From a virus, in IMG/VR virus record IMGVR_UViG_3300043434_000693, positions 1 to 64,000 of that record: a stretch of DNA of 64,000 nucleotides, one strand, 5' to 3'. Shown one piece after another: positions 26,015 through 55,230 of the stretch (position 1 is its first letter; every line of letters starts with the position of its first letter). A model generated the notes under the pieces. It ran no database searches. It was not told the origin of the DNA and saw only the letters and a list, made by a program, of their open reading frames with translations. Made by a program: the position numbers and the translations under genes.

Positions 26015-26022
26015 TATTTATA
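26015..26022 (-). promoter_or_regulatory. Late promoter, perfect T4 consensus TATAAATA
   Basis: Contains the stop codon of the upstream gene; 20 nt upstream of the 25994 start. Confidence 0.75.
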
Positions 26023-37892: not shown

Positions 37893-38921
37893 TTATGCGT
37901 TTTCAATTTGGACAACTGATCCACTTGCTGCTGCGAAAGACCATTGTGCAACTTCACCGGTTGCAAATAACCAATCTAAGTCACCACCGTCGTCAACTAA
38001 GCGGGTTAACTTTGCTTTATGTGCAGTTAATTTAGTAACATAATATGTGTTACCGTTCGCATCTGTTGCAATAATTGTTGCTTCGCCTGCTGCTGGAGTA
38101 TCTGCAACTAATGTCACACGGCCTACACCTTGTGCAGTCTTAACAATATACTTCTTGCTTCCAACTTGACGAAGAATATCGCCTAATACTGCTGATGTTC
38201 CATCTCCTGAAACATTTCCTGCTGCACCTGCTGCAGGGACCCATGCAGTAATTTGAATAGCGTTTTCTTGATTGGTTACACTACCGACATTACCTGTATC
38301 AGTAGTTAATACTGCTGTTTTAGTTGCATTACCGGTCATAGTAATTGCAGGAGCAGAAACATATCCTGAACCTTTTTCGTCAATTGCTACTGCTAACACG
38401 CCCCATGTAATGTCAACTCTTAGATTGTTACCGGTGCCGCCTGTTGTAAACATACTAGCAACTGTGCTACCTGGATCACTAACTGCTGTAGCTCCATTAT
38501 ATGCAAGTACAGTATATGAACCGCCGTCTACAAGTTCAACTGTAGTAGCTGCTCCGCCACCATCAACACTTTTAATTCTAAAACTTGCACGAGTAGTATA
38601 GGTACCGTCAACTGTTCCAGTGCCACCAGGTAAAGAACCGCTTCCTAATTCTACTAGTTCTTCATCGATATAGCTTCCGCCGCCATTATCAATACTAACT
38701 GATTTAACTACCATTGTTACAGTACCAGCTGTTGCAGTTACACCAGTAGGTAAAGTTGGTGCTGCAAAGGTTACTGAAGGAACTGCAATGTAGTTATTGT
38801 TTGTTCCACCGATAGTTACACTTGCAACTCCTTGACCGCCAATTCCATAATTGTCAGCGGTTGTGCTTGCGGAACCGACATTGCGGTTACCAAAAAATTT
38901 CTTATTTAATGGGCGTCCCAT
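37893..38921 (-). CDS. Virion protein downstream of the major capsid gene (possible head decoration/appendage protein)
   Basis: 342 aa, Gly/Thr/Ala-rich, strong AAGGAG RBS, with its own late box and downstream hairpin. Confidence 0.55.
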   Translation of the reverse strand: MGRPLNKKFFGNRNVGSASTTADNYGIGGQGVASVTIGGTNNNYIAVPSVTFAAPTLPTGVTATAGTVTMVVKSVSIDNGGGSYIDEELVELGSGSLPGGTGTVDGTYTTRASFRIKSVDGGGAATTVELVDGGSYTVLAYNGATAVSDPGSTVASMFTTGGTGNNLRVDITWGVLAVAIDEKGSGYVSAPAITMTGNATKTAVLTTDTGNVGSVTNQENAIQITAWVPAAGAAGNVSGDGTSAVLGDILRQVGSKKYIVKTAQGVGRVTLVADTPAAGEATIIATDANGNTYYVTKLTAHKAKLTRLVDDGGDLDWLFATGEVAQWSFAAASGSVVQIENA

Positions 38922-38984
38922 TTGTTTTCTCCTTTAAAACGTTCTAGGTTTACGCAGAGGGATTCTGCATAATTTTAGACAAAG

Positions 38985-38992
38985 TATTTATC
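38985..38992 (-). promoter_or_regulatory. Late promoter box GATAAATA
   Basis: Directly after the MCP terminator, upstream of the 38921 start. Confidence 0.7.
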
Positions 38993-38995
38993 AGA

Positions 38996-39049: not shown

Positions 39050-40219
39050 TTAACTGAACTTAACGTTACCGCTAGTGATACCAACAAGACCTAAGTAGTC
39101 TGCTGCATTACCAAGAGATGATGCAGTATTTGAAAGTTCAACATAACCATAACGTGTCATGAAGCTAACAACTGGTTCGAAAGTACTTGGATCAAGTACA
39201 ACACCGCTTGACATTAACGGAATGTATGGGCAGTAGAACGCAGGTGCGTCTGATTCTGAACCACCCTTATAACCAATAAGGATAGAAGCATTGTCAGTTG
39301 CATAAGTGTTTACATAAACCTTCATTGAGTTGTTTAAAGTACCAACAAACTTAGTGTTAGTTGGAGCTTCAAAAGTACCTTCAGTTGTACGAGCAAATGC
39401 TGAAGTAGTTGCTGATTGAAGGATAGTTAATGCAAATGGGCTAACTACAGCGTAGTTACCTGCACCACGACGAGTACGTTGTGCAATTAAGTTAGAAACA
39501 CGATTGATTTGAACAGCTAATGCAGCGTGTTCGTCACCAACAAATGTTGCTGTACCAGAAACGTTTGCTTGGTTGTAAGTTTCAATCGGTGATCCTGCAA
39601 GAGTTGTTAATGAACCGATGATTTCTTGATCGATTTCAGCGGTAATTTCTTGTGCAAGAGCAGCCATAATTTCTGCTTCAACGTCAATTCCTTGTTGTGA
39701 TTGAGCATCTTGTGCAGCTTCGAAAGTCCAGCGAGCTGATAACTTACGAGTCTTGGCTTCAACAGTTTGCTTCAAGATTTGAATTGACATTCTCTTACCA
39801 GCTGCACCTTCAAGTGTAGCTGTAGAAGCTGCCTTAGAACCTGGATCTGCGTCGTTACCTGAGTAACCTGCTGCAATCTTGAATGGGCTAAGTGCTTCTT
39901 CACCTGCTACAACACCTGTTGCGCTATCTGCATAACGAACACGTAATGTATGGATTTGACCAACTGGGCCAGTCATCGGTTGAACACCAACTAATTCGTT
40001 AGCAATAACGGTTGGCATAACACGACGGATAACTGGTAAAATAACACGATTTAATGTGGCAACGTTGCCGGCAGAAGTAGCACCAGCAGTTGGGGATTCA
40101 ATCAAATACTTACGAGTATTTTCAAGGGTTACACCCATTACTGATTTTTTTGTGCCTGATAAGCCTTCTAATAGGGCTTCTTTCGTTTCTGCCCAACGGC
40201 CAGTAAGTAGTTCTGACAT
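39050..40219 (-). CDS. gp23: Major capsid protein, T4 gp23-like
   Basis: VGVQPMTGPVGQIHTLR, VEAKTRKLSARWTFEAAQD, EITAEIDQEII, FYCPYIPL, DPSTFEPVVSFMTRYG. Confidence 0.95.
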   Translation of the reverse strand: MSELLTGRWAETKEALLEGLSGTKKSVMGVTLENTRKYLIESPTAGATSAGNVATLNRVILPVIRRVMPTVIANELVGVQPMTGPVGQIHTLRVRYADSATGVVAGEEALSPFKIAAGYSGNDADPGSKAASTATLEGAAGKRMSIQILKQTVEAKTRKLSARWTFEAAQDAQSQQGIDVEAEIMAALAQEITAEIDQEIIGSLTTLAGSPIETYNQANVSGTATFVGDEHAALAVQINRVSNLIAQRTRRGAGNYAVVSPFALTILQSATTSAFARTTEGTFEAPTNTKFVGTLNNSMKVYVNTYATDNASILIGYKGGSESDAPAFYCPYIPLMSSGVVLDPSTFEPVVSFMTRYGYVELSNTASSLGNAADYLGLVGITSGNVKFS

Positions 40220-42908: not shown

Positions 42909-42916
42909 TATTTATA
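42909..42916 (-). promoter_or_regulatory. Late promoter TATAAATA for the core/protease/scaffold/MCP genes
   Basis: Perfect T4 late consensus containing the stop codon of 42912-43151. Confidence 0.65.
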
Positions 42917-43155: not shown

Positions 43156-43163
43156 TATTTATG
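43156..43163 (-). promoter_or_regulatory. Late promoter box CATAAATA
   Basis: Contains the portal stop codon; 4 nt separate it from the next ATG. Confidence 0.55.
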
Positions 43164-44907
43164 CTACTGGTGGTGGAGTTGTAGGTGGTGTTAATGGTGA
43201 TGCTTCTCCGGCAACAGGATTCGTTGCTCCTATCTCGCCTTCCATGTCTTCAGGTGCAGATAAGTCGCCGGCCATTCCAAGATCCCCTTCTATCCCTGCT
43301 GCACTCAGACCTGCTGAACGTAACTCGCCGGCGGCATCTGTATGCGTCGGCATTCCTTTACCGTTCTCTTCACCCCATAAACGTTCGTTTTCGGCTACTT
43401 CTTCGTCGGTTAATCCTAAAAATCTCTTTAATGCAAATCGATTACTAATAAAAGGAATAGCTTGAATTGTATTAAAGGTATTAATTCTTTCTGCATCTAT
43501 ACTTGCTTGGCGAGAACTTGCAAAGTTCATAGGAGGATTAAAGTTAATTTCAAATAAACTTGGATCGATGTTTAATCCTTTGGTATACATGAACATTTTG
43601 AATTCTGTATCAAAGACTTCTGTTAAAAGATATTGAAGTCTTTCGCAATACTTGTTAAATCTCAGTTCTTGAATATATGCTGTTCCAACACGACCGTCGT
43701 TGAAACTTGCTTGACTGTCATCTGCTCCGGTAGGCAAGTAACTGCTTGGGATTCTTAATCCGCGGAAAAGTTTGTTTGTAAAATATTTTAAGTCGTCGAT
43801 TTCACCTAAGTTTGTTCCGCCTGGCAAGGTATCTACTTTACTTCCTCTACCGTCAGATGTTTGCGGGAAGAAGTAATCTTCATTAATAGATAATGGATTA
43901 TAAGCACTATCGATAACATTTTGGCCGCCGCCAGATTGACTCGGGATTCTTCTTTGATGTATTTCGTTTTTGATTCTTTCTACATACGCCATAGCTAAGT
44001 GGCTTGGCATGTTACCAACATCAATGTAAAATATTCTACGTTCCGGTGCTCTTTGTATTCTGTAAATTAAAATAGCATCTTCTAATAATTCTTTTTGTTT
44101 GTATACTTTAAAAACATTTTCTAATAAACTATTACCAAACGGATAATTGTTATCTAATCCTTCTGACAGACTAAGATGAACTACATGTTCAGCATCGATT
44201 GCGCATTCGGTTTCCGATAATCCAAATCTACTGCCTGAACTTGATGTGGGATACGGCCCACTTGTTCCCCGTTGTGTAGCATTTGCACCTAAATAACCAC
44301 TAGAAGGGATAACTCCTCCGCCGTTTTGTCTCGGATTAATGTTAGGTGTGATTTGAGTAGCAACTAAATGTTCAAAATTTGGTGCTAAATCTTTGATTAT
44401 ATATTGTTCAGGTCGTTTTCCGTCGCTTTCATTGACAATAATCTTTACAATTTTGCTTGGGTCAATCCAGTGCCATTTTTGAGTTTCTGGATCTCTAATA
44501 AAAAATGAGTCACCGTACTTAAATGTGTTACGAATTATTCTAAAAATTCTAGTATCAAACTTTTGTATTTTGTTCCATTGCTGCATGTATTCGCTTAGAA
44601 TTCGAACTTCTGAGTTCGTAGCTTTGCTACGCCACTTAACAGTAAAAGGACTTTTGCCGTCTTTTAATTTTTGTGTACAAAATTCAGCAAGAATGTCCAA
44701 TGCTGCATTGATTTCAGGATCGCTATCCATAACTTCATATTGTTGATATCTTTCAATACGATTCGGACTTCCTGTATAAACATCAGGCAAGTAACTAGAA
44801 TAATTTGTTTGAGCAGGGCCAGGACGAGATGTGATCGATCTTCCAGGTATAGTGCTTATTTCAGAACTTTCTGTATTAACCGGGGTAAAATATTTTTTCC
44901 ATGACAT
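43159..44907 (-). CDS. gp20: Portal vertex protein, gp20-like
   Basis: LLEDAILIYRIQRAPERRIFYIDVGNMP, EDYFFP..GRGSKVDTLPGG.NLGEIDD..YF..KL..L.IP.S, ELRF.K..RLQ. Confidence 0.95.
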   Translation of the reverse strand: MSWKKYFTPVNTESSEISTIPGRSITSRPGPAQTNYSSYLPDVYTGSPNRIERYQQYEVMDSDPEINAALDILAEFCTQKLKDGKSPFTVKWRSKATNSEVRILSEYMQQWNKIQKFDTRIFRIIRNTFKYGDSFFIRDPETQKWHWIDPSKIVKIIVNESDGKRPEQYIIKDLAPNFEHLVATQITPNINPRQNGGGVIPSSGYLGANATQRGTSGPYPTSSSGSRFGLSETECAIDAEHVVHLSLSEGLDNNYPFGNSLLENVFKVYKQKELLEDAILIYRIQRAPERRIFYIDVGNMPSHLAMAYVERIKNEIHQRRIPSQSGGGQNVIDSAYNPLSINEDYFFPQTSDGRGSKVDTLPGGTNLGEIDDLKYFTNKLFRGLRIPSSYLPTGADDSQASFNDGRVGTAYIQELRFNKYCERLQYLLTEVFDTEFKMFMYTKGLNIDPSLFEINFNPPMNFASSRQASIDAERINTFNTIQAIPFISNRFALKRFLGLTDEEVAENERLWGEENGKGMPTHTDAAGELRSAGLSAAGIEGDLGMAGDLSAPEDMEGEIGATNPVAGEASPLTPPTTPPPVA

Positions 44908-47385: not shown

Positions 47386-47407
47386 TATAAATACTCTTAT
47401 ATTTATC
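47386..47407. promoter_or_regulatory. Overlapping bidirectional late promoters (+ TATAAATA 47386-47393; - GATAAATA 47400-47407)
   Basis: Two opposed boxes 6 nt apart in the 57-bp gap between divergent genes. Confidence 0.75.
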
Positions 47408-47417
47408 AGGAGTTATT

Positions 47418-48245
47418 ATGGCTGAAAATCCATTACAGCAATTTTTTCGTCAACCTAAAATTTACATTTCGCTTCCGTCAAAAGGAATCTACAATCCCCC
47501 GGGATCAATTCAAGGTGAAGTAGAGAATATTGCAATTTATGGCATGACCGGGATGGACGAGATTGTTATTAAGACTCCTGATGCATTACTATCCGGGGAA
47601 AGTACAGTAAAAATTATCGAAAGTTGCTGTCCTTCAATTAAAGATGGGTGGTCAACTTCTGCATTAGATACCGATTTGTTATTAACTGCGATAAGAATAG
47701 CAACTTACGGAAATCAATTATCTGTAGACAAGAAATGTGCAAAATGCGGCGAAGAAAACAGCTATGATATAGATCTAAGTAACATTATTGACCATTTTAA
47801 TCGTTGTAACTTCGAAAATAAAGTAGTATTAAAGGATTTTGTAATTAAATTACAACCATTAAGCTATCGTCAAACTACAAATTTTTCCATTAAAAACTTT
47901 CAAATACAACAAAGACTTGCACAATCAGATTCTATTCAAGATGAAACTGAAAAGAAAAATATCATTACGCAATTATTTAAAGAACTTGCTGAATTACAAA
48001 ATGAGATTTTTTCTGCAAGTGTAGATTCTGTTGACTTAGGAACAACAGTTGTAACTGAAAGGGTTTATATCGACGAATGGTTAAAAAACTGCGAATCTAT
48101 TATTTTTGATGAAATTAAAAAAGTTTTCAATCAAAATAGAGAAACTTGGCGTATTCCGTCGGTTAAAGTTCAATGTTCTGCGTGTGAACACGAGTCTGAT
48201 CTAACTATAAATCTTGATAATTCAAGTTTTTTCGCGAGAGCCTGA
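47418..48245 (+). CDS. Baseplate hub / tail assembly chaperone, T4 gp26/gp51-like
   Basis: RQPKIYISLPSKG..Y, MTGMDEI, D.D.LL.AIRIATYG, two CxxC pairs (CAKC, CSAC), ends in SSFF. Confidence 0.75.
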   Translation: MAENPLQQFFRQPKIYISLPSKGIYNPPGSIQGEVENIAIYGMTGMDEIVIKTPDALLSGESTVKIIESCCPSIKDGWSTSALDTDLLLTAIRIATYGNQLSVDKKCAKCGEENSYDIDLSNIIDHFNRCNFENKVVLKDFVIKLQPLSYRQTTNFSIKNFQIQQRLAQSDSIQDETEKKNIITQLFKELAELQNEIFSASVDSVDLGTTVVTERVYIDEWLKNCESIIFDEIKKVFNQNRETWRIPSVKVQCSACEHESDLTINLDNSSFFARA

Positions 48246-48466
48246 TTAGACTAGACCAATCTCAAATAGCAGATCATCTAATTGGGCTTGACAACGATGT
48301 TAAAAATTTCAAATTAGAGCTTTATCGGCTTGTTTGGTATATGCGCGGGGGCGTTAGTATCGATAATCTGTTGTATAATTTAAGTTATGACGACAGATCT
48401 GCGATGTACGCTGTTGTAAAAGACAACATCGAATTAACTAAAGAAACAAAAATGCCCCTTATTTAG
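48227..48466 (+). CDS. Probable -1 frameshift extension of the gp26-like chaperone (missed by the ORF track)
   Basis: The -1 frame opens after TAA 48218-48220, spans slippery T TTT TTC (48227-48233), has no ATG/GTG/TTG until 48341, and reads LIRLDQSQIADHLIGLDNDVKNFKLELYRLVWYMRGGVS...TKETKMPLI*. Confidence 0.7.
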   Translation, partial: FFRESLIRLDQSQIADHLIGLDNDVKNFKLELYRLVWYMRGGVSIDNLLYNLSYDDRSAMYAVVKDNIELTKETKMPLI

Positions 48467-49461
48467 AATGCTTTGATTCTAGTCTTCCCGGTTGCTGTAT
48501 TTTTTTGAACATTTGGACTTATATCTACCCATGTTCCTTGATCTGGGATTTGAGGAGTAGATACTTTAGGCTTTTCGCTCGGGGTAGGCGATTGTTTTGG
48601 TGCTGGTTGAGTTTTATTACTAGTCGACGGTTCAACTGATTGATCAGTAGGTACTTCCGGTGATTGATCAGTAGATGTATCGGCTGTTTCCGAACCTTTA
48701 ATTGCTGTAATTAATGCATTCTTTGCTTTATTATACAATGCACCCGAAATCTCAACACCTTCTGCTGTTATCAAAGTAGCAAGTGCTTTCCTTCCTTCTG
48801 CGGTATTAATCCATGCATAGAATGCTGCGGTAGCAGCAGGTGCTAGTGCAGACAATAACGGTCCCACAAATGGAATTGCACCTAAAACTTTAGTAATAAT
48901 AGGACCACTAATTAACATTGCAGCAATGCTATCTACTAATAAACCTTGTTCAAATAGTTTACGTTCGTTAAACGAAGCTTCTGTCATTTTATTGCTTGCT
49001 AGTTGTTGTTCGTATGCAGACATATGAACATAATATTGATAAAAAGGTGCTATTAATCCTATTGATTTAACAAATTTTAACAACTTACCTGCACTAGACT
49101 TAAAAATTTCAAACCCTTTACCAATTTGAGATCCTATTTGAGCTGCACTTTGTGAAACTGATAATTCTCTAGCAAGTGCAGGTGCTTTTGACTGGGCAAG
49201 TTTTAATACTCGTGGATCATTAGCAAACTTCTTTCCTACAATAGCTTCAATTTGTGCTGGATCTGTAGTTCTTATAGATCCATGATCTAAAATTTCATTA
49301 GCCCATGTTTGTGCTAAATTTTTTATAGCATCTGGCTTTGATAAAGTATTTGCGATACTTGACATCGCCGAAGAAACACCAGGGATAGCAGAAGCCATCT
49401 TTGTAAATATTCCTGCTTCATTAAGATCATTATTTTCGGAAACAATTTCACTAATTTTCAT
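48463..49461 (-). CDS. Late protein with hydrophobic segment, possible internal head/ejection protein
   Basis: N-terminal MKISEIVSE..LNE, a long hydrophobic stretch and a Pro/Ser/Thr-rich tail; perfect late box upstream. Confidence 0.5.
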   Translation of the reverse strand: MKISEIVSENNDLNEAGIFTKMASAIPGVSSAMSSIANTLSKPDAIKNLAQTWANEILDHGSIRTTDPAQIEAIVGKKFANDPRVLKLAQSKAPALARELSVSQSAAQIGSQIGKGFEIFKSSAGKLLKFVKSIGLIAPFYQYYVHMSAYEQQLASNKMTEASFNERKLFEQGLLVDSIAAMLISGPIITKVLGAIPFVGPLLSALAPAATAAFYAWINTAEGRKALATLITAEGVEISGALYNKAKNALITAIKGSETADTSTDQSPEVPTDQSVEPSTSNKTQPAPKQSPTPSEKPKVSTPQIPDQGTWVDISPNVQKNTATGKTRIKAF

Positions 49462-49482
49462 TTTTCAAAATCCTTATAGAAC

Positions 49483-49490
49483 TATTTATA
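49483..49490 (-). promoter_or_regulatory. Late promoter TATAAATA
   Basis: Perfect consensus 21 nt upstream of the 49461 start. Confidence 0.75.
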
Positions 49491-50018
49491 GTTGAACTAC
49501 GTTCAACTGTGTTTTCGCTATCGCTCAACACATATTGTTTCTTTTTTGAAGGGCGAAGCATTTTTAAGATTATCTAGATTAATCGGCCATATTTCGCCCT
49601 GCGAGGGGCGAAAAAAATAAACTGGATATTATCTGAGTATCACAGCCATATAGCGTTAGGACTATAATGTTACATAAAGATAGCATAAATCAATTAAATG
49701 TTATCTTTATGTAGCATTTCGTAGGCGGTCATCCGGTACCTACTCATCCCGTCTTCGTAATGACGGCGGTTTGCAAATATACGCTATAACATATATGCAA
49801 ACGCGAAGGGTTTCCCTTCTCTTTTAGCCTTTATTGTTCTAGATAGTTTAAACCGGTTCTGTGAAGGCACATCCGATCATGGTCCTGTTAAGGATACTAA
49901 ACTAAATCTCTGCTACAGCCCAGAAATCCCGCCTTGCGACTTCACCAAGGGTAAGGACACCTAAATATCTTGCCGGTGTGAGCATTATCTGTAGTTAAAT
50001 TGCCTAAATATGCCTTAA
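49490..50018 (-). ncRNA. Candidate large structured non-coding RNA (~450-530 nt), family not recognised
   Basis: Largest ORF-free gap in the window. More than 12 hand-paired helices, G-U pairs mostly on the minus strand, and three loop-mediated pseudoknot/kissing pairings. Confidence 0.7.
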
Positions 50019-50669
50019 TTATGATTTTTTATTAGATAGAAGCCTGCCACGAATAAACCCTTCGCTTGGACAATTTATAGACATTGTACAAGTAACTCCG
50101 TTATTCCACCAAACTTTACCTTTACGTTTTTCTTTAAGAATTGCCTTTTGTTCATCAGTCCATTGGTAGTTGAACATAGAATTGTTTTCTCCTGATGTAT
50201 GCGATCGAGGACCTCTACACGAATTAGAAATTTTTTGTCTACGTTCTTCTGATATTGGACCGTATTTTTTACCTAAATGTGATTGTCTTTTCTTTTCTTT
50301 AGTTTCTTTTGAATCTTTAATGCCTAATCTGCTAGGCGGAGTTCTAGGATTCTTTTTATTATATTCACTTAGTTTAACATTTTTAAATCCGGGTGATTGC
50401 CCATCGATACCGTTTTCGATAACGCAATTTGCCCATTCTTTTGATTCTACTATCATATTTTTTACAGAAAAATCAATTGCAAACTTTTTACACTCTTCTA
50501 AATTGTCAAATTTCCAAATTTGAACAGTTTCAACATAGTTTCCATGCTGTATTACATGTCGTTTCCAATAAATCCCTGACCCTTTATATTTGTAAGGATC
50601 CTTAATAGTTTTACCAAAGTAGTTTAAACCTGTGACTAAATGGCGTTTGTGATATAGATATGTAATCAC
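50019..50669 (-). mobile_element. Free-standing GIY-YIG homing endonuclease (Seg-like) with NUMOD3-type repeats
   Basis: YLYHKRH..GLNYFGKT..PYKYKGSG catalytic region, WANC..ENG, SKETKEKKRQSHLGKK and SEERRQKISNS repeats, terminal WWNNG..GFIRGRL. GTG start overlaps the upstream TGA. Confidence 0.8.
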
Positions 50670-51100
50670 CCAAATAATTTACCATTTATATGTTTCTTAT
50701 GAACTCGTACTTGCACATGACCGTTGTAATAAGAATCTGATTCTAATACTTTTCTACTAAATTGTTCTCTTGCCTCTACGTACGAACACTCTGCCTTTGA
50801 TTTACAATAATAAAGTATTTCTCGTTTGAAGTTATCTTCGCCTAATTTTTTAACGTCGTTATTAAGCTCGATGTTTGATCCGTAATATTCCCGCCAGTCT
50901 GAATCTATTTTAGTTTTAATTCTTTTCTTTTTCTTCTTGCCGTTTTTTAATGTAACAACCTTATAAGAAGTTTTTGTGAATTGTGCTAGTTTTTTACCAA
51001 TATACATTCGACCATTGGTTAAATTAGTGATGAGATAGACAAAGCCTACACAATCGTCGGGAAGAGTCTCGATGATTTTTTTCTTGTAGTGCCATGACAT
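50666..51100 (-). CDS. Small stand-alone GIY-YIG nuclease (144 aa)
   Basis: GFVYLITNLTNGRMYIGKK, DWREYYGS, NFKREIL, YVEAREQ, YYNG; Lys-rich insert; no C-terminal DNA-binding repeats. Confidence 0.85.
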   Translation of the reverse strand: MSWHYKKKIIETLPDDCVGFVYLITNLTNGRMYIGKKLAQFTKTSYKVVTLKNGKKKKKRIKTKIDSDWREYYGSNIELNNDVKKLGEDNFKREILYYCKSKAECSYVEAREQFSRKVLESDSYYNGHVQVRVHKKHINGKLFG

Positions 51101-51387: not shown

Positions 51388-53166
51388 TTATCTAATCTCT
51401 AAATCGTTTGCATACGATGTAAAACCGTTTTCTTTGATAACCTTTAATACATTACTAACACGACCTACTAATTCGTCTTTATGACTAATTAAGAAAATAT
51501 TTTTCTTACGTTCTCGACCCATCTTCTTTAGTACAGATAACGCATTTTCAACACCGTTTGCATCCAACCCGTTATCAATAAGTTCGTCTACAAACAACAA
51601 ATTAATTCCTTGATATAAACTTTCCCAAACATCTCTAAATGCCCATGAAAGACCTAAAATTAATCGATTCCTTTCTCCTCTTGACAAGTTATCAAAGTCT
51701 AAGTCTTGCCCCAATTGTGTAATTTCAACTGTTAGATCGTTTTGGAATGTGACAAGATGCGGTAATCCCATCTTGTCTAGATAATAAGTTAACCGATTGT
51801 TCAAATAACCTAAATTTTGATCGATAATCTTTTTTCTTATAAAACTGTCCTTACTTGTTAACAATTTTAATAGGAATTCTTGATGTTCTTTTAACTCGGT
51901 TAACGAATTTATTTCTTCCCACGAAATGTCTTGTAACGCAGTATTTCGTAAATTATCAATTTGCTCTTGATAAGGGTCTATTTCGTCAGATTTATTAATC
52001 AGTTGTGTTTCAAGAGACGCAAGATTATTTTGATGTTTTAATGCTTCTTCGACGGTTTCATAGTACGGTTCTGGTCTTAGACCTAGTTCACCAAACGATT
52101 GAAGTTCAAGTGACACTTTGTTCAATTGAGATGATACATTGTGAAGATAGTCTTGCGATTCAGATAAGTGGCTAGTAGCAAGAGCAGTTAACTCTTCATG
52201 TTTATGATCATGCAGCTCTTGATCACACGCATGACATGTTTTATTCTTTAAACTTTCTAATTCTTTAGCATACTTGTCAGATGTTTTTTGAGCCTGTATA
52301 ACTGATGATTCTAGTGTAGCTTTTTCTTTAGTAAGACTCTTAATCTTAGCTGATGCTGCATCGTATTCTTTAACGGTTGCATGTACTAATAATTCTGCTT
52401 CAATATCAATACTTTCTAATTCAACGATAGCTTTACCGATTTTTTCTAAAGTTTGATATTTTTGTTGATTCCATGCAGACAACTTTTTCTCGAGACTATC
52501 GATACTTTCTTGTATTTTTTCGTTAGTTTTTTTAATTGCTTCGATGTTAGCAGTCTCTTGAATTATTTGATCTTTTGTGGATTTAATTTTAATTTTTAAA
52601 GATTCTGCCTTATCGGATAATTGTGTAATCCCTAACAGTTGTTCGATGATTTCTCTCTGATCTGAAGACCTCATAGATAAAAACGGTTCGGAGTAGGTAT
52701 TGAGCATAAGAATATGCTTGGCCATAGTGTGGCTCATACCAATCAAATCAGTTAAATCTTTTTGAGTTTCTCGATTGTCACCTTGTGCATCATCAGTTTC
52801 TTCTTGTTCTTGTTCTTGATCGTTAACATAAAATTTAAGAATAGACGGTTTCCTTCCTCGTTCGATGCGATAGTTGACACCGTTTTTTTCAAATGCAAGT
52901 GTTACTAACATATTTTTATTATTAATTTTATTGATCAAGTTATCTTTTTTAATGTTAGTCAAAGCAATGCCAAACAACGCATAACTTAATGCATTAACGA
53001 TGGTAGTTTTTCCGGTACCGTTTCTTGATCCGCTATCGTCTCCACCTTGATCGAGATTTTCACCGAGAACTAATGTTAAGTTTTCTCGAGCGAAATCTAC
53101 AGCCTGGGTTTGATTACCCACACTCATAAAATTTTTTACGGTTAAAGTTTTTAAATTAATAGACAT
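51388..53166 (-). CDS. gp46: Recombination endonuclease ATPase subunit, gp46/SbcC/Rad50-like
   Basis: KNFMSVGN, Walker A NGTGKTT, zinc hook CHAC, signature LSRGE, Walker B LLFVDE, ISHK. Confidence 0.95.
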   Translation of the reverse strand: MSINLKTLTVKNFMSVGNQTQAVDFARENLTLVLGENLDQGGDDSGSRNGTGKTTIVNALSYALFGIALTNIKKDNLINKINNKNMLVTLAFEKNGVNYRIERGRKPSILKFYVNDQEQEQEETDDAQGDNRETQKDLTDLIGMSHTMAKHILMLNTYSEPFLSMRSSDQREIIEQLLGITQLSDKAESLKIKIKSTKDQIIQETANIEAIKKTNEKIQESIDSLEKKLSAWNQQKYQTLEKIGKAIVELESIDIEAELLVHATVKEYDAASAKIKSLTKEKATLESSVIQAQKTSDKYAKELESLKNKTCHACDQELHDHKHEELTALATSHLSESQDYLHNVSSQLNKVSLELQSFGELGLRPEPYYETVEEALKHQNNLASLETQLINKSDEIDPYQEQIDNLRNTALQDISWEEINSLTELKEHQEFLLKLLTSKDSFIRKKIIDQNLGYLNNRLTYYLDKMGLPHLVTFQNDLTVEITQLGQDLDFDNLSRGERNRLILGLSWAFRDVWESLYQGINLLFVDELIDNGLDANGVENALSVLKKMGRERKKNIFLISHKDELVGRVSNVLKVIKENGFTSYANDLEIR

Positions 53167-54179
53167 TATAGATCGTTGTATATAGATAGTAACATATTTT
53201 TATTATATGCTTCGGAATCGATATTTACAAGCTGATTTGATACAATCTGATCAATTGATTCAAATGCTTGTACATCAAATTCAGTATTGATAACTGAATC
53301 TTTCTTTTCTGCTATTAATGTGATCTCTCGAAGATTATATTCTTTTATAAATTTTTCTTTAATAAAACTAGCCTCTTCAAAAGTAATATCAATATCTAAC
53401 GAAACTCTAAGATGTTGTTTTGGCCTTAACATTTGGTCTGAATTATCGATCAAATTACTAAGACTAGTATTTCGAAAAGTTGGTTGTTGAGGCCACGTAT
53501 GAAACTCTGGCTCTTGACCCCATTCTAAGATCATCATACCTCGATCATCGTCCCAAGAATCAGAATAGTTATGAGGGAATGCATTTCCGATGTAACAGAT
53601 ATTTTTGTTTCGTTGCCGTTTATGGAAATGCCCGCTAAATGCTAGATCATAATTTTTAAAATGTCCTAATTGTATTTCTCCATGATCTGGCATTTGAATC
53701 ATTGCATTCATATAAAATGTAGGTAGTTCAAAATGACCAAAAATATATTTGGAAGATTTTTTAGTAATTTGTTTCCATTCGTCGCCGACTAGCCACGGAC
53801 ATAGTGTTACATCACCCTCGGTAAAAGGATGATGTACAACAGTAATTCCGGGTATATATTTTCCAAATTCTACAGAATGAATATCCCGCTTGTCTTTATA
53901 GTATAGATCATGATTGCCAGGGAAAAAATAAAAGTTATCAAACGCTTGACCGAGTTTTTCAAGGGCGCGTAAACTATAATCCATGGTAGTAATATTAAGA
54001 CTGTTGCGATTATGATGCCAGTCTCCCAAGAATATTCCTGTGTCACATCCTTCCTCCTGTGCTTTTTTAATAAACCAATCAACAAAGTCTTCGCAGTCTT
54101 GATTGTGGACCGAACTATTTGACTTTAAACCAAAATGAATGTCAGTAAAACATGCTGCTTTCTTAAAAAGATTGCTCAT
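53166..54179 (-). CDS. gp47: Recombination endonuclease nuclease subunit, gp47/SbcD/Mre11-like
   Basis: Metallophosphoesterase motifs DIHFG, LGDWHH, GNHD, GHFE, SGHFH. Confidence 0.95.
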   Translation of the reverse strand: MSNLFKKAACFTDIHFGLKSNSSVHNQDCEDFVDWFIKKAQEEGCDTGIFLGDWHHNRNSLNITTMDYSLRALEKLGQAFDNFYFFPGNHDLYYKDKRDIHSVEFGKYIPGITVVHHPFTEGDVTLCPWLVGDEWKQITKKSSKYIFGHFELPTFYMNAMIQMPDHGEIQLGHFKNYDLAFSGHFHKRQRNKNICYIGNAFPHNYSDSWDDDRGMMILEWGQEPEFHTWPQQPTFRNTSLSNLIDNSDQMLRPKQHLRVSLDIDITFEEASFIKEKFIKEYNLREITLIAEKKDSVINTEFDVQAFESIDQIVSNQLVNIDSEAYNKNMLLSIYNDL

Positions 54180-54403
54180 TTACCTTCCCCAAATTGCAAC
54201 ACGAACCAATTAGAATATTTCTCTTCTGAAATATCTAAGTAACCGAGGCTTAAACAAAATGGATCCTCGGGATCAGAAAAAATTTTACAATGATATTGTT
54301 CTTCGAAAAATTCATAAAATTCTTTATCTGCAGGCAAATTATGATTGTTCTTAACAAAATCGATTGCTTCATTAACCCTAGGGTCTTTTAAATCAATTCT
54401 CAT
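54176..54403 (-). CDS. Hypothetical protein (75 aa)
   Basis: Overlaps both neighbours by 4 nt (translational coupling). Confidence 0.6.
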   Translation of the reverse strand: MRIDLKDPRVNEAIDFVKNNHNLPADKEFYEFFEEQYHCKIFSDPEDPFCLSLGYLDISEEKYSNWFVLQFGEGK

Positions 54404-55230
54404 TCGTGATCCTCATTATAACGTTTTACTGAAGCTTCGTACTCTCCAGCACTAGTTCTAGTGTAGCTCGGGTTCATTCCGTTCATTTCAAGTATATCGT
54501 CTCTAATGTTTTGATTTCGTTTTTCAATGTTAATCACTCTTACAAAACTGTTTGTAACAGCAGCGGTAAAATATGCAAATGGGTTGTCTGATTTAGACTC
54601 GTCGAATTGTAATCCAATTTGAGTAAGTTGTAAAATTGCTTGGCCTCGCATTTCGTCATTGTAAGTATATCCTCGAACGTTTCCTCGAGTTGCGTATCTC
54701 TCACACAATTTTAACATCATACGAGCTAAAGTATCAGTTATTTGTCCTGCGTTTTTATCGAAATGACCAGTATCTAACGGGCCTTTCCAGTGACTCTTTC
54801 CGACGCAGACAAGTTCGTCGCTTTCATTAAATTTCCAGTGTTGGAAAGGGGGGAAATTAACTTTTTCGTGTCGATCTGCGGTGTTTTTTGGATTTTTTTT
54901 GCGAGTAGAATTAAGGGGGATATGACTAAAGGACATAATTCTAAAAACCAAATCTAATTTATTAATTTTTTTATAATCAACTTCGCAATCAGCTTGTTTA
55001 ATTTTTTCGCCTTCGGATTTTCTTCTAATATATTCAGCGTCAGCTAATCTCTTAGCTCTATTTCTTTTTGCTTCCGCAACAGTTCTAATATTAACCTTAT
55101 CAATACCTTGTAAAATAATGTCGTATTGATGATATTCTGGTTTTTCAAACACACAGTAAGAACTTTTTGATCTGTGTATTTCTAATAACATGTCCTTGTT
55201 GTTAAGATAATTTATTTTTGATGGTACCAC
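54400..55230 (-). CDS. gp55: Late-transcription sigma factor, gp55-like
   Basis: NYLNNKDML, YTYNDEM..AI, FDESKSDNPFAYFT..NSFVRVINIEK; upstream of gp47/gp46 as in T4-like phages. Confidence 0.9.
   Translation of the reverse strand: MVPSKINYLNNKDMLLEIHRSKSSYCVFEKPEYHQYDIILQGIDKVNIRTVAEAKRNRAKRLADAEYIRRKSEGEKIKQADCEVDYKKINKLDLVFRIMSFSHIPLNSTRKKNPKNTADRHEKVNFPPFQHWKFNESDELVCVGKSHWKGPLDTGHFDKNAGQITDTLARMMLKLCERYATRGNVRGYTYNDEMRGQAILQLTQIGLQFDESKSDNPFAYFTAAVTNSFVRVINIEKRNQNIRDDILEMNGMNPSYTRTSAGEYEASVKRYNEDHE

What the first reader, a model, noticed from the sequence alone, without database searches (positions are those of the whole stretch)
49490..50018. Large pseudoknotted ncRNA candidate directly downstream of GIY-YIG nuclease genes
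Seen: a ~530-nt ORF-free gap in an otherwise gene-packed genome, richer in GC than other spacers and tiled with helices. Pairings in + coordinates: 49957-61/49975-79; 49932-36/49946-50; 49906-12/49921-27; a multiloop closed by 49844-50/49898-904 containing 49851-56/49873-78; 49805-19; 49769-802; 49749-66; 49721-43; 49667-717; 49641-47/49660-66; 49592-613. Three tertiary pairings involve loops: an 8-bp kissing pair UAUAGCGU/ACGCUAUA (49781-88 with 49649-56), GCCUU/AAGGC (49864-68 with 49827-31) and CUGUAG/CUACAG (49913-18 with 49989-94). Five helices have G-U pairs only on the minus strand, co-oriented with the upstream operon. One AU-rich hairpin (49667-717) favours the plus strand and may be a variable insert. 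Inference: a large, ornate RNA of ribozyme-like complexity that I cannot match to tRNA, tmRNA, RNase P or group I/II introns. It may form an RNP with the adjacent nuclease (by analogy with HEARO/omegaRNA-IscB) or act as a replication primer RNA.
Basis: partly seen in the sequence, partly recalled or inferred. Interest (0 to 1): 0.92.

Follow-up and report, generated by a model that had tools for sequence, protein, structure and literature searches.

The report
Full-length Polynucleobacter-1 twin-box phage RNA
The gene-free 557 bases behind the nuclease genes of this uncultured freshwater T4-like phage encode a real, triply knotted non-coding RNA of about 500 bases; it belongs to the orphan Polynucleobacter-1 family described in 2010, whose function is still unknown.

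Summary
Across 24 distinct homologues from uncultured phages, 87% of cells in 100 proposed pairs are base-paired, against 35-42% when partners are slid. 58 pairs show compensating double changes, including all three tertiary pairings.

The RNA is not unmatched. Its 5' part (49984-49841, minus strand) hits Rfam RF01718, Polynucleobacter-1, at 71 bits (cut-off 37). The 2010 raw alignment already drew a 'tail' with one tentative pseudoknot. Two pseudoknots, a duplicated 3' module and two terminal hairpins are not annotated there.

The full RNA runs about 49994-49491. It lies downstream of a conserved 144-aa GIY-YIG gene, as in 52 of 52 RNA-anchored loci and 68 of 79 protein-anchored loci. In this window an I-TevI-like homing endonuclease gene is wedged between gene and RNA.

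The 3' half carries one 7-nt word twice (AGAUAAU). The two copies are identical in nearly every homologue, while the word itself differs between phages. I found no partner for it.

Nothing supports a guide role for the nuclease, or an origin. Function is unknown.

This scan has reached the same reading on other genomes.

The parts
49491..49994 (-). Full-length structured RNA, about 504 nt, from the 5' strand of pseudoknot PK1 to the end of hairpin P15. True transcript ends were not determined.
   Evidence: Conservation and covariation across 24 W-like and 13 group-A homologues.
49841..49984 (-). 5' domain, the part covered by Rfam RF01718 (helices P1-P6).
   Evidence: cmscan 71.4 bits, gathering score 37, E 3.6e-13, model positions 1-141 of 141.
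49913..49994 (-). PK1: CUACAG (49994-49989) pairs with CUGUAG (49918-49913) in the P3 loop. The 5' strand lies outside the Rfam model.
   Evidence: 6 pairs, 97.9% of cells paired. Column 13/99 shows CG, AU and UA. Group A has CUACGG/CCGUAG and CUACUG/CAGUAG.
49844..49904 (-). P4, the multiloop-closing helix (49904-49898 with 49850-49844). It encloses P5 (49894-91/49886-83) and P6 (49878-73/49856-51).
   Evidence: P4: 6 of 7 pairs have double changes, with 3-4 pair types each. P5 is invariant. P6: 3 of 6 pairs have double changes.
49827..49868 (-). PK2: P6 loop GCCUU (49868-64) pairs with AAGGC (49831-27).
   Evidence: GC to AU double change in L028 and L037 (ACCU/AGGU). Group A has GCUU/AAGC.
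49805..49819 (-). P7 hairpin.
   Evidence: The 4 outer pairs are 96-100% paired, and all 6 columns show double changes.
49769..49802 (-). P8 hairpin. Its loop carries the 5' strand of PK3.
   Evidence: 7 of 7 pairs have double changes.
49649..49788 (-). PK3: P8 loop UAUAGCGU (49788-81) pairs with ACGCUAUA (49656-49).
   Evidence: 8 of 8 columns have double changes in group B. Group A uses unrelated duplexes: CUCUAAU/AUUAGAG, UUCAACUA/UAGUUGAA and AUUGGAUU/AAUCCAAU. It probably equals the tentative 'tailpknot' of the 2010 alignment.
49721..49766 (-). P9 (49766-62/49753-49) and P10 (49743-39/49725-21, inner 49735-33/49728-26), with the near-invariant core GGUACCGGAUGACCGCC.
   Evidence: Mostly invariant columns, so structure is neither supported nor refuted. 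The core is conserved in both groups and in the 2010 seeds.
49667..49717 (-). P11, a variable AU-rich hairpin insert.
   Evidence: Present in 7 of 24 homologues only.
49628..49634 (-). Twin box 1: word AGAUAAU, preceded by the invariant ACUC.
   Evidence: Alignment columns 451/519, 452/520 and 455/523 are identical in 24 of 24. The words are identical in 36 of 37 and in 43 of 43 RNAs.
49569..49575 (-). Twin box 2: word AGAUAAU, preceded by the invariant AUCU.
   Evidence: Same as box 1.
49592..49613 (-). P13 hairpin between the two boxes.
   Evidence: 97.4% of cells paired, 3 pairs with double changes. Column 283 in the P9 loop mirrors the P13 pair 484/499 in 24 of 24 sequences.
49491..49531 (-). 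P14 (49531-27/49513-09, with a GNRA-like apical GC-GAUA-GC) and P15 (49507-01/49497-91).
   Evidence: P14: 3 pairs with double changes. P15: 4 pairs with double changes. Both are absent from the Polynucleobacter chromosomal copy.
49483..49490 (-). TATAAATA, a T4-type late promoter for the 332-aa gene. It marks the 3' limit of the RNA.
   Evidence: The motif occurs only 4 times in the window, each shortly upstream of a gene start on the right strand. It is conserved at this position in group B.
50019..50669 (-). 216-aa homing-endonuclease-like ORF wedged between the GIY-YIG gene and the RNA.
   Evidence: No homologue at this position in 52 other loci. Residues 148-194 match the I-TevI DNA-binding domain, PDB 1I3J, E 0.003. 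NUMOD3 matches at E 0.029, below cut-off. An N-terminal YLY...YFGKT motif was seen by eye.
50666..51100 (-). 144-aa GIY-YIG gene, the conserved upstream neighbour of the RNA.
   Evidence: PF19835 SegE_GIY-YIG, E 7e-33. Homologues of 52-77% identity sit directly upstream of the RNA in 52 loci.

Best explanation
The gap is the gene for a full-length member of the Polynucleobacter-1 RNA family (Rfam RF01718). The RNA is about 504 nt long and is read from the minus strand.

Shown: a 5' domain (P1-P6) locked by two pseudoknots (PK1, PK2). A middle domain follows (P7-P10), whose P8 loop forms a third pseudoknot (PK3). Then comes a 3' domain made of two similar modules. Each module is a helix strand followed by about 25 similar bases that end in a pyrimidine triplet and the same 7-nt word. 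The two modules flank hairpin P13. Two terminal hairpins (P14, P15) end at the late promoter of the next gene.

Inferred: the RNA is made as the tail of the gp47-gp46-GIY-YIG transcript, because in most relatives it starts 2-16 nt after that gene's stop codon. It then acts in trans as a compact scaffold that shows the two identical words to one outside reader.

The RNA is not shown to need, guide or regulate the nuclease.
For: - Rfam hit of 71.4 bits on the minus strand.
- All 12 first-pass homologous loci also hit RF01718, at 84-101 bits.
- Conservation runs about 350 nt beyond the Rfam model in both RNA groups.
- In 18 helices, 87.4% of cells are paired against 35-42% slid. 58 pairs have double changes against 17-25 slid. 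0 of 500 shuffles reach the observed values for four of the five measures; 4 of 500 reach the count of further pair types.
- G-U cells outnumber A-C cells 161 to 54.
- PK3 is kept through unrelated sequences in group A.
- The RNA follows a GIY-YIG homologue in 52 of 52 RNA-anchored loci and in 68 of 79 protein-anchored loci.
- The distance from stop codon to RNA start is 2-16 nt in most loci.
- The twin words are identical in 36 of 37 and in 43 of 43 RNAs while the word changes between phages. I saw 13 words in phages, plus AGCGAAA in the Polynucleobacter copy.
- No complementary column for the words exists inside the RNA.
Against: - There are no expression data.
- P5, P9 and P10 are nearly invariant, so their pairing is untested.
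- No reader of the twin words was found in the RNA, within 6 kb either side, or in the window.
- The identity of the two words could also come from alternative pairing or from recombination between the repeats.
- The plus strand folds even better by energy alone.
- Related sequences share ancestry, so the shuffle statistics overstate significance. The slid control is the fairer one.
Confidence: 0.85

Rival explanations
1. The RNA is the partner of the adjacent minimal GIY-YIG nuclease. It would act as a scaffold or guide in the way omegaRNA serves IscB or TnpB, with the twin words as targeting segments.
For: - The gene order is tight: 52 of 52 and 68 of 79 loci.
- The RNA starts a few nt after the nuclease stop codon, as omegaRNAs do.
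- The 144-aa protein has no separate DNA-binding domain.
- The words are short and change fast.
Against: - The protein family occurs in 499 deposited phage records. The three I inspected (Melnitz, P-HM1, phiM12) have coding genes directly downstream and no RF01718.
- Six close homologues (65-72% identity) lack the RNA within 1-1.5 kb.
- No basic insert or other feature separates RNA-linked from RNA-free proteins.
- No protein column tracks word position 1: MI is at most 0.26 of 0.98 bits.
- Homing-endonuclease-like ORFs can sit between gene and RNA.
- In the 2010 alignment, the Polynucleobacter-type copies show no gene stop in the 100-nt 5' flank.
- A 7-nt guide is too short for specificity.
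Confidence: 0.1
2. The RNA builds an RNA-only homo-oligomer, as GOLLD, ROOL and OLE do. The repeated modules would serve inter-protomer contacts.
For: It is a large ornate RNA carried by phages with no known protein partner. GOLLD, ROOL and OLE were found to form homo-oligomers (abstract of PMC12286853). The unpaired conserved words have no partner within the molecule.
Against: Contacts between protomers through base pairs would show complementary columns, not identical ones. Only the window's box 2 region is palindromic (AUCUAGAU), and relatives are not. There is no Rfam match to GOLLD or ROOL.
Confidence: 0.08
3. The region is mainly a cis-acting part of the mRNA or DNA: a protective 3' UTR and terminator block for the nuclease operon, plus promoter elements for the next gene. 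It would not be a trans-acting RNA.
For: - It probably lies on the operon transcript.
- P13 was marked as a possible terminator in two sequences of the 2010 alignment.
- P15 abuts a late promoter.
- The boxes resemble -10 hexamers (GATAAT, CATAAT).
Against: - Three covarying pseudoknots and invariant single-stranded cores are far more than stability or termination needs.
- No helix on the minus strand is followed by a U run.
- The spacing from the -35-like block to the box is about 10 nt, too short for sigma-70.
- The downstream gene differs and is convergent in group A, yet the RNA is kept.
Confidence: 0.12
4. The region is a replication origin or primer RNA site, or a group I or II intron remnant.
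For: It lies next to the recombination genes gp46 and gp47, and it is dense in hairpins.
Against: - The cumulative GC skew shows no inflection here.
- G-U asymmetry and compensatory changes show selection on one transcribed strand.
- No intron family matches, even at E up to 5.
- The flanking ORFs are complete genes, not split exons, and the downstream gene differs between groups.
Confidence: 0.03

Closest known systems
Polynucleobacter-1 RNA motif (Rfam RF01718; Weinberg et al. 2010, Genome Biol 11:R31, PMC2864571)
   Same: It is the same family. The score is 71 bits over the full 141-position model, and P1-P6 are all present. The genomic context matches the paper's note that most copies lie downstream of GOS11034-family genes with possible homology to cyanophage P-SSM2 locus 218. 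The 2010 raw alignment's 'actual motif' also holds a tail (P7, P8, the P10 region) and a tentative pseudoknot that fits PK3.
   Different: The Rfam model stops at 49841. PK1 (whose 5' strand lies upstream of the model), PK2, the two twin-box modules and P13-P15 are not annotated in 2010; P13 was marked only as a possible terminator in two rows. The paper found no copy in any purified phage. Here the RNA sits in a T4-like phage contig, and the neighbouring gene can be named as a SegE-type GIY-YIG (PF19835).
GOLLD, ROOL and OLE large ornate RNAs
   Same: They are large, multi-pseudoknotted orphan RNAs, often phage-borne (GOLLD, ROOL), with unknown function.
   Different: There is no sequence or structure match in Rfam. 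This RNA is smaller (about 500 nt), has a different gene context, and no oligomer evidence.
HEARO / omegaRNA of IscB and TnpB
   Same: A structured RNA lies directly downstream of a small nuclease gene on the same strand.
   Different: There is no HEARO hit. The nuclease is GIY-YIG, not RuvC/HNH. No long variable guide segment sits at either end. The nuclease family is widespread without the RNA.
Free-standing Seg and I-TevI-type homing endonucleases of T4-like phages
   Same: The 216-aa ORF matches the I-TevI DNA-binding domain. It sits in an intergenic junction beside a conserved target, as such genes do.
   Different: It is an insertion next to the RNA, not part of it. The conserved 144-aa neighbour has only the catalytic domain and behaves like a stable core gene. 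It diverges about as slowly as gp46: 52-77% against 51-77% identity.

Membership tests
Polynucleobacter-1 RNA (RF01718) | Covariance-model score above the curated gathering score over the whole model | tested here: met
   71.4 bits against 37, model positions 1-141 of 141, minus strand 49984-49841.
Polynucleobacter-1 RNA (RF01718) | Helices of the model (three hairpins, then a multiloop helix enclosing two hairpins) present and covarying | tested here: met
   P1-P4 and P6 have pairs with double changes. P5 is invariant.
Polynucleobacter-1 RNA (RF01718) | 3' 'tail' with long hairpin and pseudoknot, as in the 2010 'actual motif' | tested here: met
   P7, P8, P10 and PK3 are present and, apart from P10, covary. 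Compare SS_cons and SS_cons_1. The mapping of the 2010 pseudoknot onto PK3 was made by eye.
Polynucleobacter-1 RNA (RF01718) | Location downstream of a GOS11034-family or PSSM2_218-like gene | tested here: inconclusive
   A GIY-YIG gene that is conserved in cyanophages lies upstream. One 2010 row shows the same C-terminal coding flank. I did not test directly that GOS11034 or PSSM2_218 equals this gene. In this window a 216-aa ORF intervenes.
HEARO / omegaRNA (IscB) | Rfam HEARO match and an adjacent IscB or TnpB gene | tested here: not met
   No hit at the gathering score, or at E up to 5, in 49300-50200. The neighbours are GIY-YIG proteins.
Group I / group II introns | Match to the intron covariance models, and interruption of a host gene | tested here: not met
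   No hit. The flanking ORFs are whole, and the downstream gene differs between groups.
GOLLD / ROOL | Match to the Rfam models | tested here: not met
   No hit in the window.
tRNA / tmRNA | ARAGORN detection | tested here: not met
   0 genes in the window.

The most novel reading that the evidence does not exclude
The twin 7-nt words, each behind an invariant pyrimidine triplet (CUC or UCU, both able to pair with GGG through wobble), are a programmable address. One outside nucleic acid of the phage or host would read them by base pairing. That would make this a new kind of RNA-directed recognition device in T4-like phages, possibly recruiting the neighbouring domain-poor GIY-YIG nuclease.
Probability: 0.08. 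Interest if true: 0.9.

Novelty: new member of a known kind. Interest (0 to 1): 0.5.

Why it matters
Polynucleobacter-1 has been an orphan motif since 2010. It is catalogued as a 141-nt model and was said not to occur in any purified phage.

This window and about 130 related contigs change that picture:
- The real molecule is a roughly 500-nt RNA with three pseudoknots.
- It is carried by uncultured freshwater T4-like phages.
- It is anchored behind a conserved SegE-type GIY-YIG gene.
- Its 3' half carries two words that always change together.

Letter-for-letter co-change without any complementary partner is unusual. It gives a concrete handle for finding what the RNA binds. Large ornate phage RNAs such as GOLLD and ROOL are under active structural study, and this one is a compact, well-aligned candidate for the same treatment.

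No deposited phage genome carries it, so an isolate is needed before bench work can start.

Tried and rejected
- **Deposited phages.** blastn of the gap, and of a group-A RNA, against 50,697 phage records found no match.
- **The 216-aa protein as anchor.** It gave 8 viral loci, none with RF01718, so it is not the conserved partner.
- **Representative genomes.** The core pattern in 185,579 prokaryote genomes gave 4 hits, all chance matches inside unrelated sequence.
- **Cultured relatives.** An Rfam scan of Melnitz, P-HM1 and phiM12 around their GIY-YIG genes found no RF01718.
- **A reader of the twin words.** No complementary column exists in the RNA. No positionally conserved complement lies within 6 kb either side; sites near -1120 inside gp46 occur only in AGAUAAU phages and do not covary. 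ATTATCTGGG is absent from the window. No GIY-YIG residue covaries with the word.
- **Boxes as sigma-70 promoters.** Rejected on spacing.
- **Boxes as CsrA sites or anticodon-loop mimics.** Rejected because GGA and U33 are not conserved. This is inference.
- **Two long-range helices proposed by RNAalifold.** These were GGC/GCC at columns 196-198/313-315 and CGCU/AGCG at columns 426-429/625-628. I set them aside in favour of PK2 and PK3, which have true double changes where the alternatives show only wobble or breaks.
- **RNase P resemblance.** A resemblance of ACAGAACCGGUUU to RNase P CR-V, recalled from memory, was dropped because no RNase P model hits.

Full report
**Setting**

The window is part of a 96-kb IMG/VR viral record estimated at 26% complete. 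The genes mark it as a T4-like myovirus:
- gp20 portal, 43159-44907
- a baseplate hub protein, 47418-48245
- gp46 and gp47 (SbcCD-like), 51388-54179
- the gp55 late sigma factor, 54400-55230

All of these except the hub gene lie on the minus strand.

The finding is the 557-nt gap between a 216-aa ORF (50019-50669, minus) and a 332-aa ORF (48463-49461, minus).

**Observation**

The gap folds better than shuffled sequence on both strands, with z = -5.0 on minus and -7.6 on plus. Energy therefore does not choose the strand. GC is 38.4% against 36.7% for the window.

**Identity**

Rfam finds RF01718, the Polynucleobacter-1 RNA, at 49984-49841 on the minus strand. The score is 71.4 bits against a gathering score of 37, over the full model. 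No other family matches the gap, even at E up to 5. That excludes introns, GOLLD, ROOL, HEARO and RNase P. ARAGORN finds no tRNA or tmRNA.

The family comes from Weinberg et al. 2010 (PMC2864571). Their supplement makes four statements:
- The motif occurs in environmental samples and in one Polynucleobacter genome.
- The 3' half is not always detected.
- Most copies lie downstream of GOS11034-family genes, possibly related to cyanophage P-SSM2 locus 218.
- No copy was seen in a purified phage.

Their raw alignment marks an 'actual motif' longer than the 'search motif' that became the Rfam model. It has a tail of further hairpins and one tentative pseudoknot without covariation support.

**Homologues**

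A degenerate pattern from the conserved core found 12 IMG/VR loci, and a looser one found 57. Two of the 57 were chance matches. All 12 of the first set score 84-101 bits for RF01718.

The RNAs fall into two groups:
- Group A has 13 distinct sequences. It is close to the Rfam consensus and is followed by a convergent gene.
- Group B has 24 distinct sequences, including the window. It is followed by TATAAATA and a gene on the same strand.

In every locus the ORF-free stretch continues at least 390 nt beyond the Rfam model. The sequence there is conserved in blocks in both groups.

**Structure**

I then counted it on the MAFFT alignment of the 24 group-B RNAs (A1). One search gives the results below. 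No shuffle reaches the observed value for four of the five measures; for the count of further pair types, 4 of 500 do.

| Measure | Observed | Partners slid 1-3 columns | Column shuffles |
|---|---|---|---|
| Cells forming a standard pair | 87.4% | 35-42% | 76.0% |
| Pairs changed on both sides | 58 of 100 | 17-25 | 37.7 |
| Covariation score | 0.344 | 0.06-0.09 | 0.149 |

- **Strongest helices.** These are P4, P7, P8, PK3, P13 and P15.
- **Invariant helices.** P5, P9 and P10 hardly vary, so they are untested.
- **PK1.** CUACAG (49994-89) pairs with the P3 loop (49918-13). The pair takes three states across the groups. Its 5' strand lies upstream of the Rfam model.
- **PK2.** The P6 loop GCCUU pairs with AAGGC. 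It changes to ACCU/AGGU in two phages and to GCUU/AAGC in group A.
- **PK3.** The P8 loop pairs with 49656-49. All eight columns change on both sides in group B. In group A the same pairing is kept by three unrelated duplexes of 7-8 bp, one of them in two variants differing by a single compensated pair.
- **Strand.** G-U cells outnumber A-C cells 161 to 54, so the minus strand is the one under selection.
- **Rejected alternatives.** RNAalifold also proposed two competing long-range helices. They show only wobble changes or breaks where PK2 and PK3 show true compensation.
- **Variable insert.** Hairpin 49667-49717, together with the helix 49641-47/49660-66, is an insert found in 7 of 24 RNAs.

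**Twin boxes**

After PK3's 3' strand, and again after P13's 3' arm, come two similar stretches of about 25-30 nt. In the window they read:
- AUAUGGCUGUGAUACUC-AGAUAAU
- AUAUGGCCGAUUAAUCU-AGAUAAU

The last seven letters sit at 49634-28 and 49575-69. They are identical in the two copies in 36 of 37 pattern-anchored RNAs. They are also identical in 43 of 43 distinct RNAs from an independent, protein-anchored set. The word itself differs between phages:
- Group B and the protein-anchored set: AGAUAAU, GGAUAAU, GCAUAAU, GAAUAAU, AGAUGAU, GGAUGAU, AGAUGAG, GGAUGAG, AGAUGAA, GGAUGAA, ACAUGAG
- Group A also has GGUCAAG and AGUCAAG
- The Polynucleobacter copy has AGCGAAA

Alignment columns 451/519, 452/520 and 455/523 are 100% identical, and no column in the RNA is complementary to them. 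The flanks stay different (ACUC against AUCU). That argues against simple homogenisation by recombination.

A second oddity concerns column 283 in the P9 loop. It equals the 3' base of one P13 pair in 24 of 24 sequences and complements the 5' base in 23 of 24. That suggests a base triple or an alternative pairing.

I found no reader for the words. There was none within 6 kb either side, none in the window, and none in the GIY-YIG protein sequence.

**Gene context**

The 144-aa gene (50666-51100) is a SegE-type GIY-YIG protein (PF19835, E 7e-33). In 52 of 52 RNA-anchored loci with upstream sequence, a homologue of 52-77% identity ends just before the RNA. The gap from stop codon to RNA start is usually 2-16 nt. 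The common order is gp47, gp46, a small ORF, the GIY-YIG gene, then the RNA.

Starting from the protein, 80 more loci were fetched. In 68 of the 79 with usable downstream sequence, the RNA's domains follow in order. In at least three, the RNA sits behind an inserted ORF of 275-338 aa. In six, nothing is detectable within 1-1.5 kb.

The window's own wedged ORF (216 aa) has no counterpart in the other loci. It matches the DNA-binding domain of I-TevI (1I3J, E 0.003) and has a sub-threshold NUMOD3 hit. It is therefore a homing-endonuclease-type insertion at the gene-RNA junction. L049 carries the same ORF end.

The GIY-YIG family is far wider than the RNA. tblastn finds it once per genome in 499 deposited phages, including cyanophages, Sinorhizobium phiM12, Stenotrophomonas Moby and Methylophilales phage Melnitz (53% identity). 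In Melnitz, P-HM1 and phiM12 it is followed directly by coding genes, and there is no RF01718. RNA-linked and RNA-free proteins share all motifs, and the basic insert is not specific to either group.

**Boundaries**

TATAAATA occurs only four times in the window. Each copy lies shortly upstream of a gene start on the right strand. The copy at 49490-49483 serves the 332-aa gene and abuts P15. This sets the RNA's 3' limit near 49491.

No convincing promoter precedes the RNA. Because it starts so close to the upstream stop codon, I infer co-transcription with the nuclease operon. A conserved AGGC(A) lies 6-10 nt upstream of PK1 and is unexplained.

**Function**

What is shown is a conserved, compact RNA fold with three pseudoknots and two co-changing single-stranded words.

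What is inferred is that it acts in trans as a scaffold presenting those words to a single outside reader.

- **Nuclease-RNP reading.** It keeps only synteny in its favour, and several lines count against it. I put it near 10%.
- **Origin or primer reading.** It has no support: there is no skew inflection, and selection is strand-specific and RNA-like.
- **Purely cis role.** It is hard to square with the elaborate covarying core, and with a downstream gene that changes while the RNA stays.

**Novelty**

The family is known, so this is a new member. Relative to the public record, the following are added:
- the phage home of the RNA
- the name of the neighbouring gene
- PK1 and PK2
- covariation support for PK3
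- the twin-box modules and P13-P15

Earlier agents of this scan reached the same reading on other genomes. I tested the main points independently here.

Noticed in passing
window 38919-38993 (-): Rfam RF02980 freshwater-2 RNA, 52.5 bits (gathering score 49.9). It lies in the short gap between the ORFs 39050-40219 and 37893-38921, a second orphan environmental motif in the same phage.
   Followed up: no
window 26015-26022 (-), 42909-42916 (-), 47386-47393 (+), 49483-49490 (-): TATAAATA occurs only 4 times, against about 10 expected by chance. Each copy sits about 20-110 nt upstream of a gene start on the matching strand, which fits T4-type late promoters.
   Followed up: partly
window 50019-50669 (-); L049:1-190; L089, L130, L096 about 1930-2940: The junction between the GIY-YIG gene and the RNA is a repeated insertion site for extra ORFs of 216-338 aa. 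The window's ORF is I-TevI-like. This suggests the conserved RNA gene or the junction is a homing target.
   Followed up: partly
window 49996-50015 (-): AGGCA occurs twice just upstream of the RNA in the window (AAGGCAUAUUUAGGCAAUUUA). A single AGGC(A) is conserved 6-10 nt upstream of PK1 in most group-B loci. Its role is unknown.
   Followed up: no
window 49757 with 49610/49595 (alignment A1 columns 283, 484, 499): One P9-loop base always equals the 3' base and complements the 5' base of a single P13 pair (24 of 24 and 23 of 24 sequences). This could be a base triple or an alternative pairing.
   Followed up: partly
window 48463-49461 (-): The 332-aa late gene downstream of the RNA has no Pfam or PHROG family and no tblastn match in deposited phages. 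It has a low-complexity, P/S/T-rich C-terminal third. Weak relatives (35% identity over 110 aa) follow the RNA in L045, L060 and L064.
   Followed up: no
L107:1930-2776; L076/L077:2180-2660: Close GIY-YIG homologues are followed by 480-850 nt of ORF-free DNA that matches neither RF01718 nor my sequence profiles. These may be diverged or different RNAs.
   Followed up: no
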